A program made the translations under genes and the position numbers. This document shows, piece after piece, positions 1,930 to 49,314 of a stretch of 64,000 nt of DNA. The stretch is from a virus (taxonomy: Duplodnaviria > Caudoviricetes), in IMG/VR virus record IMGVR_UViG_3300013121_000036, positions 32,001 to 96,000 of that record; one strand, written 5' to 3'. The notes beneath the pieces are model-generated. The model did no database searches and had not been told where the DNA came from. It saw only the letters and a program-made list of their open reading frames with translations. Every line of letters begins with the position of its first letter. Position 1 is the first letter of the stretch.

Positions 1930-2229
1930 ATGGCAAAGAAGTTGGACTACTCCTCCGCGAAGAAGGCTCAGAAGGTGTCCGAGGAAGCGTCCGCCCAGAG
2001 GGCCGCAAGGGGTGTCGTCAGGTCGTTCGACGACGAGCCCAAGAGGGTCGTTCGGGTGTCGACCAAGACCGTCAACATGAGGATGTTCAACCTCAAGAGG
2101 GTGAGGATGCTCTACGTCTTCGAGCTTGAGTGCGGGCACTCAGTGAATTTCGCGAGGATGCCTCACGAGAAACACGAGTACCTGCTCTGCTCAAGGTGCC
2201 ACTCAGACTCCTTGACACCTGGCATGTGA
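1930..2229 (+). CDS. hypothetical protein, C-terminal Zn ribbon
   Basis: LECGH...CSRC. Confidence 0.6.
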   Translation: MAKKLDYSSAKKAQKVSEEASAQRAARGVVRSFDDEPKRVVRVSTKTVNMRMFNLKRVRMLYVFELECGHSVNFARMPHEKHEYLLCSRCHSDSLTPGM

Positions 2230-2242
2230 GGTCGGATACTAT
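2212..2242 (+). promoter_or_regulatory. sigma70-type promoter
   Basis: TTGACA(2212)-17 nt-GATACT(2235); alternative -10 TACTAT at 2237. Confidence 0.65.
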
Positions 2243-2249
2243 GGCAGCC

Positions 2250-2333
2250 ATGCTCTAGCTGCCAAGAGGCCCGCCCTCCTCGAACAAAGCCAGTCCCGTG
2301 AACAGAAACGCTTGTCCGTGGAGGAAGATATGA
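2250..2333 (+). CDS. putative leader peptide M-L-(amber)-LPRGPP...
   Basis: ATG CTC TAG CTG CCA AGA GGC CCG CCC; read-through frame ends in a TGA overlapping the ATG at 2330. Confidence 0.5.
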
Positions 2334-2698
2334 ACAACCATGTTTTGTTTCGGAACATCTCGCAACTGAAGAAGCGCAGCAGGCTCCAGCACCTCATCTA
2401 CAACTGGATGATCCAGACGCCGCGAGAGAAGGTGGAGCGTAGGGTGAGCGAGCAGAGCCTTGCCTTCATCAAGGGCGAGGCACGTCGCATGAGGAACATC
2501 CTGAGCGTTGACACCGCGCCAGATGGAGCTGAGCCTGGCCACCGAACGCTGACGGCGATGGCGGTACACGAGGTCGTGGACTTCGTCGAGTGGCTCAAGC
2601 TCGACTCGTACGAGGTCAAGGTCTGTGCTCCTGGTTCGGTTGCCGAGAGGAAGCTTAGGGCTGCTGAGCGCAGGGCGGCCAAGAGCGCCGAAGCGTAG
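2330..2698 (+). CDS. hypothetical protein; N-terminal half of an amber read-through fusion with Pth2
   Basis: GGAGG RBS; ends in TAG in frame with the Pth2 domain. Confidence 0.75.
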   Translation: MNNHVLFRNISQLKKRSRLQHLIYNWMIQTPREKVERRVSEQSLAFIKGEARRMRNILSVDTAPDGAEPGHRTLTAMAVHEVVDFVEWLKLDSYEVKVCAPGSVAERKLRAAERRAAKSAEA

Positions 2699-3007
2699 GG
2701 CAAGCTCTACATCGTGGTGAGGGAAGACCTGCCGCAGGGCGCAAGGGTAGCCCAGTCGGTTCACGCCGCCGTCGAGATGGCAGTGGAGCATCCACGCGAA
2801 TTCAGGGCGTGGTGGAAAAGCTCCAACACCGTCGTGGTGTTGCTGACCAAAGACGAGGAGCGCCTCACGTCGATCTTCGACGATGCCATCGAGAAGAACA
2901 TGACGACTGTCCTCTTCAGTGAGCCAGACATGGGCAACCGGCCCACGGCGATGGCCGTCATCGACCAAGGCGCCAAGCGCTTGCTTCGCAAGCTGAAGCT
3001 GGCATAA
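2699..3007 (+). CDS. pth2: peptidyl-tRNA hydrolase 2 (Pth2)-like domain
   Basis: KLYIVVREDL...AQSVHAA...W...TVVVL...FSEPD...TAMA...LRKLKL; the first strand starts right after the TAG with no start codon of its own. Confidence 0.85.
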   Translation, partial: GKLYIVVREDLPQGARVAQSVHAAVEMAVEHPREFRAWWKSSNTVVVLLTKDEERLTSIFDDAIEKNMTTVLFSEPDMGNRPTAMAVIDQGAKRLLRKLKLA

Positions 3008-3045
3008 CATCGACACATGGCCAGGTCCACTTCGGGCCTGGCTTC

Positions 3046-3118
3046 GAGGCCATAGCTCAGCAGGTAGAGCGGCGGGTTCTAAACCTGCAAGTCGCCGGTT
3101 CGAGCCCGGCTGGTCTCA
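3046..3118 (+). tRNA. amber suppressor tRNA (anticodon CUA)
   Basis: acceptor GAGGCCA/TGGTCTC, D arm GCTC/GAGC, anticodon stem GCGGG/CCTGC with loop TT-CTA-AA, T arm GCCGG-TTCGAGC-CCGGC, A73; no encoded CCA. Confidence 0.92.
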
Positions 3119-3133
3119 CGAAGGAGAACGAAG

Positions 3134-3724
3134 ATGGCGAAGTTTGCTTGGTTCATTGAGAGCGACGGGTACCTGAAGAAGGAGTTTGACGACATCTGGG
3201 ATACCGTAGAGGATGCCGTGAAGTTCGGAGTGGAACAAGACATCCTCAAGAAGGTCGTCGTTGGATCGGTCGAGCCGATGATCCCGTGGGACGCGATCAC
3301 CGCTGTCGACGTTGCCATGCTGAGGGAAGACGAAGGACAACTGTCTCCGCAGTCGCTCCTGGGCATGGTCTACGGGATGTTGCCACCTCTCATCAACGAG
3401 ACTTTCGTGTTCCTGAAAGGCGGGGCAGAAGCTGCCTTTCAGGAAATCATGTCACGAGGTGGCAACGACGACGACTTCCTTGCTTGGTGCAAGCAGTACA
3501 TCGAGGCCGACCCAGAGACATGCGTCTTCGGTGTTCACCCACTACCGCTTGGCTTCAGAAACGGTCACTGGTGCATGGCATCGGATGAGGACGTCTGGGT
3601 TGACGTTCACATCGAGGACGACGGCTCGTTCGGAGGTTGGGACTGGTACGCAGGGGCCCCAGCATCGTGGGGCACATGCGACAGCCTACGAGAGGCGATG
3701 AGCCTTGCCAGCGGTCGTAAATGA
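3134..3724 (+). CDS. hypothetical protein
   Basis: AAGGAG RBS, 196 aa. Confidence 0.7.
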   Translation: MAKFAWFIESDGYLKKEFDDIWDTVEDAVKFGVEQDILKKVVVGSVEPMIPWDAITAVDVAMLREDEGQLSPQSLLGMVYGMLPPLINETFVFLKGGAEAAFQEIMSRGGNDDDFLAWCKQYIEADPETCVFGVHPLPLGFRNGHWCMASDEDVWVDVHIEDDGSFGGWDWYAGAPASWGTCDSLREAMSLASGRK

Positions 3725-4257
3725 CGTTCGCGGTGAGCAACGAGAAGGATGTTCTTATCAAGCTCAGGAACCAGCTTCTGGAGCTGGAGTCGAAGTACCG
3801 TGAGCTGGCCAAGAAGGCAGAGGATGCGGAAGACTGGATGACCAAGTACGAAAGGCTGGCATCTTTTCGAGCTTACGAAATCTCAGGCAAGCTGGTGGCC
3901 AGCGCGATTTTGGCCATCGAACAGGTAGGAGCCGAAGTGAAAGCCGAAGTGAACTTCAAGTGGGAATGCCCCACGTGCGGAGCGGTGGCCGGCAAACATG
4001 GGGCTGGCGGAAAATCGAAGTGCATCTCAACCACAGCAGGATGCGATGGGTTGATCTGCGAGTGCGACCCTCGTGATCTTGGAAACGACTACAGTGCGAA
4101 GGACCACGGCGTCTCTCACTCGAATCCATGCCAGAACGCAAGCTGTTACCACTGCGGCTGGGGAGGACGACTGCCTCCAGTGCCGAAGAAGATGCAGCCG
4201 TGGGAGAAGAAGGCTATCAGTGCCGGGTGGACTCCGCCGGCTGGGTGGGGGCAGTGA
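3721..4257 (+). CDS. hypothetical protein with Cys-rich C-terminus
   Basis: ATGA overlap; CPTC, CICEC-like, CYHC. Confidence 0.65.
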   Translation: MTFAVSNEKDVLIKLRNQLLELESKYRELAKKAEDAEDWMTKYERLASFRAYEISGKLVASAILAIEQVGAEVKAEVNFKWECPTCGAVAGKHGAGGKSKCISTTAGCDGLICECDPRDLGNDYSAKDHGVSHSNPCQNASCYHCGWGGRLPPVPKKMQPWEKKAISAGWTPPAGWGQ

Positions 4258-47730: not shown

Positions 47731-48104
47731 ACGGCGGATTGTAGCCCACCGTCACGATAACTACCAGGCCGACGAAGCGACCTCATGGCGCTCGACAGCG
47801 CCCGCGACGTGTCGACGTTGGCAAGTTGAACTCGCCTCTCGTCATCGGTGCCTAGGATTTCCCTGGCGATGGCGTTGGCCAGGTCGATGTTCGTCGAGAC
47901 CACGAAGATGTGGTTGCCGCTCGCGCAAGACCTCGTGTGCTTCTTGCACTTGCCGCACAGTAGGTGCCCCAGCTTCGCCCTCGTGTGCTGAAGTGCGAGC
48001 CTTGCCCCGGCCCTGCCATACGTTGGATCTATCCAGGCGAACACTCCAGCCGGCCTCCCGGTGGTGAACTCGTATCGAAAGAACACAGCCTCTATGTAGC
48101 TCAT
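47727..48104 (-). CDS. hypothetical protein
   Basis: AGGAG RBS. Confidence 0.55.
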   Translation of the reverse strand: MSYIEAVFFRYEFTTGRPAGVFAWIDPTYGRAGARLALQHTRAKLGHLLCGKCKKHTRSCASGNHIFVVSTNIDLANAIAREILGTDDERRVQLANVDTSRALSSAMRSLRRPGSYRDGGLQSAV

Positions 48105-48658
48105 CGTTTTCTCCTGTGTATCGTTGTCTCGTCGTACAGAGCGCCCCACGTCGGGTTCATGAGCCGCTCGACCTCATCGAAGGCCGACGCCAAAAGCTGG
48201 TGGAACTGGTCGTCAGCGGTGCAGCCGCCGGCTCCCTCTCCACAGTAAGCAACGTACTCTCCGCCAAGCGAAAGGTGCTTGACGGTAGCGTTGTAAGCCA
48301 TGGGGCTTTCATATGGTGGCCATACGAGCAGCAGTGTCCTTGCTGGCGGCATGTCGTTCAGGTCGTCCGTCACCCCGATGGGGTAGTACCTTGTTCTCCA
48401 CTTTTCGGCGTCGAAGGCCGATATCTTGCCGCCGGCCTCAGCTATCATGGAGGCCCAGTATCCGCTGCCAGCTCCCCACTCAACGATGGGCGAATACTTC
48501 GCTATGGCCCTGATGGTCTTCTCGTCTGGGATACCCCACGAGTATTTCCTCACCAGTTCCCATCGCTCTTTCGGCATGATGCGAGGGAGCCTGCCTTCGT
48601 CCCCCATGAACGGCTCAAGCTCTTCGAGGTACGGGTTGGCGATGGTCTTGTTCTTCAT
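48101..48658 (-). CDS. SAM-dependent methyltransferase-like protein
   Basis: IVEWGAGSGYWA, LLLVWPPY, YCGE..GGCTA. Confidence 0.75.
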   Translation of the reverse strand: MKNKTIANPYLEELEPFMGDEGRLPRIMPKERWELVRKYSWGIPDEKTIRAIAKYSPIVEWGAGSGYWASMIAEAGGKISAFDAEKWRTRYYPIGVTDDLNDMPPARTLLLVWPPYESPMAYNATVKHLSLGGEYVAYCGEGAGGCTADDQFHQLLASAFDEVERLMNPTWGALYDETTIHRRKR

Positions 48659-48691
48659 GTTGCCATTATACCTCGAAGAGCTTGGCAAGGT

Positions 48692-49078
48692 CTACTTGAA
48701 CCTACGCCTCGGGTAACACTTGAAGAACAGGTTGGACAGCTCCAGCCTCGTCTTCATGGTCGCCTTTCGCAGCTTCTTTGCAACTTCGCTGTCGCCACAC
48801 TCTTTGGCGGCCTCCAGGCAGGCATCCTTCAGCTCCTCGTCTGTCAAGGCAGCCATGATTCTGTTCTTCAGGCTGATGTACCTGGACCTGCGCATGGTCT
48901 CCAGCATGAAGTAGTTCACGTACGAGAGAACGTAGTCCGGCGACACGAAGCCGATGTCCTCCAGGCTGCAAGCCGCCGCCATCACCTGGACTGAAGCGAT
49001 GCGATGACCGAACAGCAAGAGCGCGTCGGAAGCGCCCTGCTCTGCCGCTATCTTCATGATTTCCATGGCGCGCCTCAT
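48692..49078 (-). CDS. hypothetical protein
   Basis: ends in TAG, in frame with next gene. Confidence 0.55.
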   Translation of the reverse strand: MRRAMEIMKIAAEQGASDALLLFGHRIASVQVMAAACSLEDIGFVSPDYVLSYVNYFMLETMRRSRYISLKNRIMAALTDEELKDACLEAAKECGDSEVAKKLRKATMKTRLELSNLFFKCYPRRRFK

Positions 49079-49314
49079 CAGAAGAAGGTGAACGTTTGTT
49101 CGAAACGAAGTTCGTTTTCAAGGCACAGTTGAAACACACCGGAGTCGAGCAAGACCCTGTAGTACGGTGGTCTTGTGTTGTCTCCCATGACAACGTGAGT
49201 GCCGACAACCTCTCCAAGCTCTCCATAGCAAGCGAGGTCAGGTTCGGCGACCACGACTCTCGTGCCTTTTGGATGGGCACTTGATACCCACGCGCGCTTG
49301 TCATCGTCAGTCAT
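49078..49314 (-). CDS. small SH3/KOW-like protein
   Basis: GTRVVV...GELGEVV...YRVLLD...ENEL. Confidence 0.55.
   Translation of the reverse strand: MTDDDKRAWVSSAHPKGTRVVVAEPDLACYGELGEVVGTHVVMGDNTRPPYYRVLLDSGVFQLCLENELRFEQTFTFF

What the first reader, a model, noticed from the sequence alone, without database searches (positions are those of the whole stretch)
2330..3007. Pth2 domain reachable only by amber read-through
Seen: ...AKSAEA-TAG-GKLYIVVREDL. The conserved first strand of Pth2 begins before any usable start codon (GTG 2714 would truncate it and lacks a clear RBS). Inference: the hydrolase is made as a ~225-aa read-through fusion, so its level depends on suppression. It might also help recycle peptidyl-tRNA from ribosomes stalled at UUA (speculative).
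Basis: partly seen in the sequence, partly recalled or inferred. Interest (0 to 1): 0.8.

Follow-up and report, generated by a model that had tools for sequence, protein, structure and literature searches.

The report
Amber-gated two-domain Pth2-like phage gene
In this 111-kb uncultured phage one UAG stop separates a small helical-domain gene from a peptidyl-tRNA-hydrolase-like domain that has no start codon of its own, and a UAG-reading tRNA gene lies 38 bases downstream, so the full two-domain protein is probably made only when that tRNA overrides the stop.

Summary
ATG 2330 opens a 122-codon ORF that ends at TAG 2696-2698. GKLYIVVREDL follows in frame and starts a complete Pth2-fold domain, ending at TAA 3005-3007. 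No ATG, GTG or TTG lies between the TAG and the conserved K-L-Y. GTG 2714 lies inside the first strand and has a weak ribosome site. A canonical tRNA(CUA) sits at 3046-3119.

Other phages encode the upstream domain ("Ndom") and the Pth2-like domain as one uninterrupted protein, or as adjacent genes. Two metagenomic loci (L088, L039) also have a TAG in the linker.

Of 109 distinct related loci, 33 have a TAG 2-8 codons before K-L-Y with no start between; 25 show a tRNA(CUA) in the fetched DNA. The phage is not TAG-recoded: this is its only interrupted gene.

Caveats: the usual Pth2 catalytic lysine aligns to alanine, so hydrolase activity is unproven, and I found no evidence for the UUA idea.

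This scan had already noted suppressor-gated Pth2-like genes in many other genomes, and I found no paper describing them. New here are the gate at a domain junction and a possible second amber gate in a leader (2250-2258).

The parts
2212..2240 (+). Promoter-like site (TTGACA, 17 nt, GATACT). It would start the transcript 2-3 nt before ATG 2250.
   Evidence: 10 of 12 consensus matches; 3 sites found in the region against 0.2 expected. This is a consensus match only.
2250..2333 (+). Possible leader mini-ORF: ATG CTC TAG (TAG 2256-2258), then 24 more open codons to TGA 2331-2333, which overlaps ATG 2330. It would be a second amber gate.
Evidence: Read from the sequence. The same M-x-TAG pattern opens cassette genes in other loci. 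Not tested by comparison, because no close relative's DNA was available.
2275..2324 (+). Hairpin pairing CCUCC (2275-2279, inside the leader ORF after its TAG) with the ribosome site GGAGG (2320-2324) of the Ndom ORF.
   Evidence: minimum-energy and centroid folds both show the pairing; z = -1.8, and 10 of 200 shuffles fold as well. Its role is inferred.
2330..2695 (+). Upstream ORF of 122 codons (P0003): a probable divergent member of the helical 'Ndom' that accompanies or is fused to Pth2-like domains. It has a strong ribosome site (GGAGGA, -9.3 kcal/mol).
   Evidence: An Ndom HMM built without this sequence gives E 0.001 (18.5 bits) among 9,071 ORFs, with the next noise hit at 0.18. hhalign alone is weak (E 0.011). 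There is no Pfam or PHROG hit.
2696..2698 (+). In-frame amber codon, in the context GCG TAG G, at the linker between the two domains.
   Evidence: It is the only TAG in the 110.8-kb genome that interrupts a coding sequence with no nearby start after it.
2699..3007 (+). Pth2-fold domain (102 codons plus TAA) with no start codon of its own before the conserved K-L-Y.
   Evidence: PF01981 at 39.9 bits. Family HMM at 125.8 bits, full length. AlphaFold pLDDT 93-98. Foldseek matches to 2zv3, 3erj, 1wn2, 1q7s and 1xty with target TM 0.73-0.77.
2714..2719 (+). GTG GTG (V129, V130): the only canonical start codons after the TAG, and the start that gene callers choose (97-aa ORF).
   Evidence: (P0008). 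A start here removes K125-L126-Y127-I128 of strand beta-1. The ribosome site is weak (-3.1 kcal/mol).
3020..3042 (+). GCCAGG/CCTGGC hairpin between the TAA and the tRNA. No T-run follows, so it is not terminator-like.
   Evidence: Read from the sequence; no + strand terminator was found. Co-transcription of the tRNA with the ORFs is inferred.
3046..3119 (+). tRNA with anticodon CUA (amber suppressor): canonical cloverleaf, U33, A37, G1:C72, A73, short variable loop, no encoded CCA.
   Evidence: ARAGORN. Rfam tRNA at 64.2 bits, E 1e-11. Its nearest relative among the tRNAs I collected is the tRNA(CUA) downstream of the Pth gene of mycobacteriophage I3, at 76% identity.

Best explanation
The stretch from about 2212 to 3119 is one small cassette: [possible amber-containing leader] - Ndom ORF - UAG - Pth2-like domain - tRNA(CUA).

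Ribosomes start at ATG 2330. When release factor 1 wins at UAG 2696, they release the 122-aa Ndom protein. When the phage's own tRNA(CUA) decodes the UAG, they continue and make a 225-aa Ndom-X-Pth2-like fusion. This is the same two-domain architecture that other phages encode without a stop. The Pth2-like domain is therefore produced only in proportion to amber suppression.

Shown:
- the anatomy
- the Pth2 fold
- the lack of an own start before the conserved K-L-Y
- the natural fusions
- the recurrence of matching stop and suppressor tRNA pairs
- the absence of genome-wide recoding

Inferred:
- that the tRNA is expressed and charged, and with which amino acid
- that the fusion is made
- that the leader UAG (2256) also controls access to the Ndom ribosome site

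My guess, not shown, is that the Pth2-like domain acts on tRNA esters linked to suppression, either peptidyl- or aminoacyl-tRNA(CUA) or drop-off products. That would scale its supply to the activity that creates its substrate.
For: 1. Anatomy.

2. The codons after the TAG are under protein-level selection. K-L-Y-I matches the family's most conserved motif and lies before any start.

3. An exhaustive HMMER search found single-ORF proteins with an N-terminal ~100-aa domain joined to the Pth2-like domain (P0013, P0017, P0022, P0032, P0057, P0080, P0113, P0147, P0129, P0131). Loci L061 and L062 encode such fusions too. The AlphaFold model of P0057 shows two confident domains joined by a disordered linker, residues 103-120.

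4. The same Ndom is a separate gene directly upstream of the Pth2-like gene in about 24 of 55 viral loci.

5. P0003 matches the Ndom HMM at E 0.001, standing clear of noise.

6. L088 and L039 have a TAG in the same linker, after a similar Ala-rich tail, with tRNA(CUA) just downstream.

7. Across 109 distinct loci, 33 have a TAG 2-8 codons before K-L-Y with no start between. Of these, 25 have tRNA(CUA) in the fetched DNA, and 6 of the other 8 have under 1.2 kb of downstream sequence. Five more have a TAG inside the domain. TAA and TGA gates occur with tRNA(UUA) (L047) and tRNA(UCA) (L043). No gate has only a non-matching suppressor. Fisher p = 3e-5, uncorrected for phylogeny. The base after the gate TAG is a purine in 31 of 33.

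8. In L010 and L029 the ATG before the TAG overlaps the stop of the preceding Ndom gene (TAATG, ATGA), which marks it as the real start.

9. The cultured phage pT24 has ATG AAA TAG before its Pth2-like domain and a tRNA(CUA) 2.6 kb upstream.

10. In this phage's own genome, 123 of 141 called genes end in TGA, and no other gene is interrupted by TAG.

11. Strain variants from independent assemblies keep the split, and the domain's only two changes are conservative.
Against: - Nothing is experimental. Expression, charging and amino-acid identity of the tRNA are unknown.
- Seven other genes of this phage end in TAG. An efficient suppressor would extend them by 2-196 codons.
- The link of P0003 to Ndom is weak on sequence alone (hhalign probability 4%).
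- L088 and L039 have a GTG or ATG between the TAG and K-L-Y, so the junction TAG there could be an ordinary stop.
- In Bixzunavirus, the closest annotated relatives, the Pth gene has its own GTG with a well-placed ribosome site.
- The 22 loci with a TAG six codons before K-L-Y form one clade, so the counts are not independent.
- The lysine of the Pth2 G-K motif is not conserved, so the benefit of making the domain is unclear.
Confidence: 0.6

Rival explanations
1. TAG 2696 is an ordinary stop. The Pth2-like protein is made separately, by termination and re-initiation or by weak independent initiation at GTG 2714 or 2717, as a 96-97-aa protein lacking most of strand beta-1.
For: GTG 2714 lies only 15 nt after the stop, within reach of re-initiation. 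About 10% of this phage's genes have ribosome sites as weak. Gene callers chose this start in four independent assemblies. Bixzunavirus relatives start their Pth gene with a GTG right after a TAG.
Against: It would remove K125-L126-Y127-I128, the most conserved motif of the family and the central strand of a confidently modelled fold. It also leaves unexplained why K-L-Y-I is kept in frame directly after the stop. Dozens of relatives have no start at all before K-L-Y.
Confidence: 0.15
2. The gene is an ancestral Ndom-Pth2 fusion recently broken by a nonsense mutation. Only the 122-aa Ndom is made, and the Pth2-like part is a decaying remnant.
For: Natural uninterrupted fusions exist, so a single nonsense change could produce this layout. 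No experiment shows the downstream part is translated.
Against: The domain scores full length against the family HMM (125.8 bits) and keeps the conserved residues of the fusion alignment. Its third-position GC is 0.83. Strain variants differ only by two conservative changes. The stop is exactly the codon read by the tRNA 38 nt downstream, and matching stop and tRNA pairs recur widely.
Confidence: 0.12
3. Read-through does occur, but through host factors (near-cognate decoding, a host suppressor or weak release factor 1 activity). The neighbouring tRNA(CUA) would serve another purpose, such as replacing or decoying host tRNAs attacked by defence nucleases.
For: Phage tRNAs are known to counter tRNA-targeting defences (my own background knowledge, not checked here). 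22 of 63 ungated Pth2-like loci also carry a tRNA(CUA), so that tRNA is not tied to gating alone.
Against: A CUA anticodon matches no sense codon. The type of gate stop follows the type of suppressor (TAG with CUA, TAA with UUA, TGA with UCA). No read-through-promoting RNA structure follows the TAG (z = 0.14).
Confidence: 0.06
4. The stop is an assembly or sequencing error, or the tRNA(CUA) acts as an initiator tRNA that starts translation at the TAG itself.
For: The contig comes from a metagenome. Engineered amber initiator tRNAs can start translation at UAG (PMC6393288, seen as a search hit, describes such tRNAs).
Against: Independent assemblies show the same split. The tRNA has a paired G1:C72 and only two G:C pairs plus one G.U in the lower anticodon stem, so it looks like an elongator. 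There is no ribosome site before the TAG.
Confidence: 0.03

Closest known systems
Stop-codon-recoded phages with their own suppressor tRNAs (TAG read as Gln, 'code 15'; crAss-like, Lak and others; bioRxiv 10.1101/2021.08.26.457843; PMC9523058)
   Same: A phage-encoded tRNA(CUA) decodes an in-frame UAG, so a phage protein is made only when that tRNA is active.
   Different: In those phages hundreds of in-frame TAGs are spread over many, mostly late, genes. Here the genome uses the standard code and the only interrupted gene is the one next to the tRNA. That preprint does not mention Pth or hydrolase genes.
Programmed read-through fusions, such as the Q-beta coat/A1 protein and retroviral Gag-Pol (my own knowledge of these systems)
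   Same: One start codon and one leaky stop give a short product plus a C-terminally extended fusion in a fixed ratio.
   Different: Those rely on host near-cognate tRNAs and on sequence context. Here a dedicated cognate suppressor tRNA is encoded 38 nt downstream.
Bixzunavirus (mycobacteriophages Bxz1, I3, Cane17) 'peptidyl tRNA hydrolase' gene followed by tRNA(CUA)
   Same: This is the closest annotated relative: 46% protein identity, 76% tRNA identity, and the same order of Pth2-like gene then tRNA(CUA). A TAG directly precedes the coding sequence (ATG TAG GTG).
   Different: There a GTG with a well-placed ribosome site follows the TAG, so the 124-aa protein need not depend on suppression. 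No Ndom ORF is fused in frame.
Archaeal and eukaryotic peptidyl-tRNA hydrolase 2 (PF01981; PDB 1wn2, 2zv3, 3erj, 1q7s, 1xty)
   Same: The same fold (target TM 0.73-0.77; Z 14.7 and rmsd 1.9 over 104 residues for the homologue P0057). The Pfam score is above the cut-off.
   Different: Sequence identity is only 19-30%. The G-K-G-K loop is two residues shorter, and the lysine before (V/A)AQ aligns to Ala138. The D-A-G-x-T motif reads E-P-D-M-G...T-A. No activity has been tested.
prfB (RF2) autoregulation through an in-frame UGA (my own knowledge)
   Same: An in-frame stop early in a translation-factor gene makes its synthesis report on how efficiently that stop is decoded.
   Different: prfB uses a +1 frameshift and senses release-factor level. 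Here a suppressor tRNA reads the stop in frame.

Membership tests
PTH2 (Pfam PF01981) | Sequence match above the curated Pfam cut-off | tested here: met
   39.9 bits against a cut-off of 23, profile positions 2-82 of 115.
PTH2 (Pfam PF01981) | Pth2 alpha/beta fold, including the N-terminal central strand | tested here: met
   AlphaFold pLDDT 93-98. Foldseek matches 2zv3, 3erj, 1wn2, 1q7s and 1xty at E 1e-6 to 1e-4, target TM 0.73-0.77. The homologue P0057 matches 1wn2 at Z 14.7.
PTH2 (Pfam PF01981) | Catalytic residues: the Lys of the G-K motif and the Asp and Thr of the D-A-G-x-T motif. I recall these residues from the S. solfataricus Pth2 literature and did not re-read it here. | tested here: inconclusive
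   In the HMMER alignments to 2zv3, 1wn2 and 1q7s the lysine position is Ala138 (QGARVAQ against GKGKMVAQ). The acidic motif is E198-P-D200...T206. These rest on alignment only, at low identity.
PTH2 (Pfam PF01981) | Hydrolysis of peptidyl-tRNA | not testable with these tools
   Needs an enzyme assay or complementation of a pth(ts) strain.
Genome-wide stop-codon-recoded phage (code 15 type) | Phage-encoded suppressor tRNA matching the reassigned stop | tested here: met
   tRNA(CUA) at 3046-3119.
Genome-wide stop-codon-recoded phage (code 15 type) | Many genes interrupted by the reassigned stop; coding density collapses under the standard code | tested here: not met
   Only two TAGs have coding signal on both sides. 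One of them (48692) has its own ATG 12 codons downstream. 123 of 141 called genes end in TGA.
Suppressor-tRNA-gated Pth2-like cassette (a recurring layout seen in this scan; I found no published description) | Pth2-like gene with an in-frame stop before or inside the conserved domain and no canonical start between the stop and the K-L-Y motif | tested here: met
   TAG lies two codons before K125 with no start between. 33 of 109 distinct loci share this layout.
Suppressor-tRNA-gated Pth2-like cassette (a recurring layout seen in this scan; I found no published description) | Suppressor tRNA matching that stop encoded nearby on the same strand | tested here: met
   The tRNA(CUA) lies 38 nt after the TAA. 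25 of the 33 upstream-TAG loci have one in the fetched DNA.
Ndom + Pth2-like two-domain proteins | The upstream part is homologous to the helical Ndom of the natural fusions | tested here: inconclusive
   HMM E 0.001 (18.5 bits) among 9,071 ORFs, with the next noise hit at 0.18. hhalign gives E 0.011 and probability 4%. The motif RLQHLIYNWMIQTPREKVERRV aligns with R-h-l-l-L-A-y-a-f-l-R-G-x-P-Y-x-x-v-E, and the position matches. This is supportive but not conclusive.

The most novel reading that the evidence does not exclude
The cassette would be a self-contained translational circuit. The phage amber-suppressor tRNA has no clients in the genome other than its own cassette: a leader UAG that unmasks the Ndom ribosome site, and the junction UAG. 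The ratio of Ndom alone to Ndom-Pth2 fusion would then report suppression strength. The Pth2-like domain would act back on the suppressor tRNA's ester (aminoacyl or peptidyl) and so hold read-through at a tolerable level. That would make it a built-in regulator for a stop-codon-reading tRNA, and it would give the puzzling suppressor tRNAs of non-recoded phages a first defined target.
Probability: 0.2. Interest if true: 0.85.

Novelty: new variant of a known kind. Interest (0 to 1): 0.7.

Why it matters
Many phages that use the standard code carry suppressor tRNAs with no known target. The authors of the XacN1 genome paper read through that phage's amber stops in silico and found none (PMC5852040). 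A conserved neighbouring gene that can only be read through the matching stop gives these tRNAs a concrete and testable client.

It also shows a regulatory design in which a tRNA, not a protein or a small RNA, licenses translation of a single gene. The junction version seen here adds a two-product switch: one domain alone, or both domains fused.

There is a practical consequence as well. Standard gene callers truncate or miss these genes, as with the 97-aa call here and the shortened CDS of phage pT24. The family is therefore mis-annotated in databases.

Tried and rejected
- **Genome-wide TAG recoding:** rejected for this phage. My count of internal stops in the related loci could only be read for low-GC loci, where TAG counts were 0-3. 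In high-GC loci spurious ORFs swamp it.
- **P0003 as a degenerate duplicate of the Pth2-like domain:** suggested by a BLASTP hit to the C-terminal half of P0149 (E 3e-4). Rejected, because the family HMM gives no hit even at E 100 and P0003 against P0002 is not significant.
- **An RNA structure promoting read-through after the TAG:** none found (z = 0.14).
- **Pyrrolysine:** ARAGORN's 'tRNA-Pyl' label only reflects the CUA anticodon. The tRNA is a canonical cloverleaf. I did not specifically search the genome for pyl genes.
- **Close relatives of this exact locus:** none by megablast against phages, exact peptide scans of viral and metagenome contigs, a junction DNA pattern or the word-indexed protein search.
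- **Genome-contig scan with the fusion alignment:** found nothing.
- **The look-up of encoding contigs:** I could not fetch the DNA of the strain variants or of the natural fusion proteins.
- **Function of Ndom:** the only Pfam hits on Ndom parts were below cut-off (DUF5739 on the L026 ORF, 21.8 bits against 25; COMP on L039, 15.4 against 23.9). The protein atlas gave nothing. Fold matches were generic helical hairpins at Z about 6.
- **Literature:** four searches found no paper that links Pth2-like genes to suppressor tRNAs or to in-frame stops.

Full report
**What is in the window**

The window is bases 32001-96000 of a single 110,758-bp IMG/VR virus record with direct terminal repeats and 61.5% G+C.

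- ATG 2330, with a strong GGAGGA ribosome site, opens a 122-codon ORF (P0003) that ends AKSAEA-TAG at 2696-2698.
- The same frame continues GGC AAG CTC TAC ATC GTG GTG AGG (G K L Y I V V R) for 102 codons to TAA 3005-3007 (P0002).
- Thirty-eight bases later lies a canonical tRNA with anticodon CUA, at 3046-3119 (ARAGORN; Rfam 64 bits). It is the only convincing tRNA in the genome.

**The downstream part is a complete Pth2-fold domain without its own start**

- PF01981 matches from profile position 2 at K125 (39.9 bits against a cut-off of 23). phrog_1866 matches at E 5e-18.
- An AlphaFold model of the read-through product gives pLDDT 93-98 for the domain, with strand beta-1 at residues 126-131.
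- Foldseek finds archaeal and human Pth2 structures at target TM 0.73-0.77 over their full length.
- No ATG, GTG or TTG lies between the TAG and K-L-Y. The first starts, GTG 2714 and 2717, are V129 and V130 inside beta-1. The ribosome-site energy there is -3.1 kcal/mol, about the weakest tenth of my 141 gene calls.
- K-L-Y-I is the family's most conserved motif. Its presence in frame directly after the stop means these codons are translated.

**The upstream part belongs with it**

An exhaustive HMMER search with the read-through protein returned 1,030 relatives of the Pth2-like half. Among the best 150 were about a dozen single-ORF proteins with a ~100-aa N-terminal domain ("Ndom") joined to the Pth2-like domain.

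An Ndom HMM built without the window's sequence finds a separate Ndom gene directly upstream of the Pth2-like gene in about 24 of 55 viral loci. With 65 sequences, the HMM scores P0003 at E 0.001 among 9,071 ORFs. That is the first hit after the known members, with the next noise hit at 0.18. hhalign alone is weak, so I call P0003 a probable, divergent Ndom.

A natural fusion (P0057) models as a confident helical Ndom, a disordered linker at residues 103-120 and the Pth2 domain. The window's TAG sits in that linker.

Two metagenomic loci, which are related to each other, have the same layout. L088 reads ...NAAKRSAA-TAG-six codons-KLY. L039 reads ...EAATTAA-TAG-six codons-KLY. Both have tRNA(CUA) just downstream, but each also has a GTG or ATG after the TAG.

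**The wider pattern**

I pooled 55 viral and 80 metagenomic loci, which gave 109 distinct sequences.

| Class of locus | Count | Suppressor tRNA in the fetched DNA |
|---|---|---|
| TAG 2-8 codons before K-L-Y, no start between | 33 | tRNA(CUA) in 25; 6 of the other 8 have under 1.2 kb downstream |
| TAG inside the domain | 5 | tRNA(CUA) in 4 |
| TAA gate before K-L-Y (L047) | 1 | tRNA(UUA) |
| TGA gate inside the domain (L043) | 1 | tRNA(UCA) |
| Ungated | 63 | tRNA(CUA) in 22 |

Six further loci with TAA or TGA gates showed no suppressor tRNA in the fetched DNA. No gated locus carries only a non-matching suppressor.

- The association between a TAG gate and tRNA(CUA) gives Fisher p = 3e-5. 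It is not corrected for phylogeny, and 22 of the loci form one clade with M-x-L-TAG-(I/V)-K-E-G-D-K-L-Y.
- Within that clade the flanking codons vary while the TAG is kept.
- In L010 and L029 the ATG before the TAG overlaps the stop of the preceding Ndom gene, which marks it as the true start.
- The base after the gate TAG is a purine in 31 of 33 loci.
- The cultured Tenacibaculum phage pT24 has ATG AAA TAG before its Pth2-like domain, its annotated CDS starts too late, and a tRNA(CUA) lies 2.6 kb upstream.
- The closest annotated relatives, Bixzunavirus mycobacteriophages, have the Pth gene followed by tRNA(CUA). An ATG-TAG-GTG sits at the gene start, though the GTG there has a good ribosome site.

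**This is not a recoded phage**

Of 141 called genes, 123 end in TGA, 10 in TAA and 8 in TAG. Only two TAGs have coding signal on both sides: 2696, and 48692, which has its own ATG 12 codons downstream. No other substantial gene begins with M-x-TAG.

**The stop is real**

Near-identical variants from independent assemblies keep an upstream ORF ending AEA and a 97-aa downstream call. They show only two conservative changes in the domain.

**A possible second gate**

- A promoter-like site at 2212-2240 would give a nearly leaderless ATG CTC TAG at 2250-2258.
- If that TAG is read, the frame runs 24 more codons to TGA 2331-2333, which overlaps ATG 2330.
- CCUCC at 2275-2279, inside this leader, pairs with the GGAGG ribosome site at 2320-2324 (z = -1.8).
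- Read-through of the leader would therefore unmask or couple translation of the Ndom ORF. This is inference only.

**Mechanism and limits**

The best reading (confidence 0.6) is as follows. Termination at UAG 2696 gives Ndom alone. Decoding by the cassette's own tRNA gives the 225-aa fusion. The Pth2-like domain is thus made in proportion to suppression.

The function of the domain is open. The fold and the Pfam score are met, but the lysine of the G-K motif aligns to Ala138.

The rival explanations are initiation at GTG 2714, a recent nonsense break, host-driven read-through, and an assembly error or initiator-tRNA role. No experiment exists for any of them.

**Novelty**

Four literature searches found no description of the pairing. 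The XacN1 paper explicitly found no targets for that phage's CUA tRNAs.

This scan had already noted suppressor-gated Pth2-like genes in many other genomes, and I reached the pattern independently. New here are the gate at an Ndom/Pth2 domain junction and the Ndom family itself.

Noticed in passing
window 2250-2333: A mini-ORF reads ATG CTC TAG, then 24 open codons ending in a TGA that overlaps ATG 2330. A CCUCC inside it pairs with the ribosome site of the next ORF. This may be a second amber gate controlling the whole cassette.
   Followed up: partly
window 48101-49117 (- strand): TAG 48692-48694 ends a 124-aa ORF and is in frame with the next gene, which looks like a SAM methyltransferase (motif GAGSGYW). 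That gene has its own ATG 12 codons later. It is probably an ordinary junction, but an active suppressor would fuse the two.
   Followed up: partly
whole genome (G000), including window 7763, 11846, 20905: In-frame TTA is very rare (19 of 31,285 codons in my crude gene calls), and several lie at or near the last codon. Another report of this scan reads TTA as a stop signal; I did not test that.
   Followed up: partly
L005, L018, L022, L025, L035, L046, L048, L055 (about 20-270 nt upstream of the Pth2-like gene): Ungated Pth2-like genes are often preceded by unusual tRNAs whose anticodons start with A (AAA, AAU, also AAG and AAC). Where I read the loops (two tRNAs), position 31 does not pair with 39. 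Pth2-like genes therefore seem to travel with non-standard tRNAs in general, not only with suppressors.
   Followed up: no
L036 about 3403-3990; L041; P0139; L059 261-1100 (XacN1 ORF364); L060 882-1700 (pT24): A third cassette gene, HD-like with the motif HDCGKP, also begins ATG-NNN-TAG in L036 and L041. It is fused to the Pth2-like domain in P0139, XacN1 ORF364 and pT24 gp293.
   Followed up: partly
L001 and L002, 1474-1482 (mycobacteriophages Cane17 and I3): The annotated GTG start of the Bixzunavirus 'peptidyl tRNA hydrolase' gene is directly preceded by an in-frame ATG TAG, and a tRNA(CUA) follows the gene. These are cultured phages in which amber dependence could be tested.
   Followed up: partly
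L060 747-755 (Tenacibaculum phage pT24, NC_049383.1): ATG AAA TAG precedes the Pth2-like domain, and the deposited CDS starts 127 nt further on, inside the domain. The gene is probably mis-annotated because of the amber codon. A tRNA(CUA) lies at record position 191520-191594.
   Followed up: partly
P0029, P0083, P0109, P0119 (protein database entries): Some long 'Pth2' protein calls have N-terminal extensions containing (E)VAGS-x-P-x-x-R. This looks like a tRNA T-arm translated in frame, so those ORF calls run through an upstream tRNA gene.
   Followed up: no
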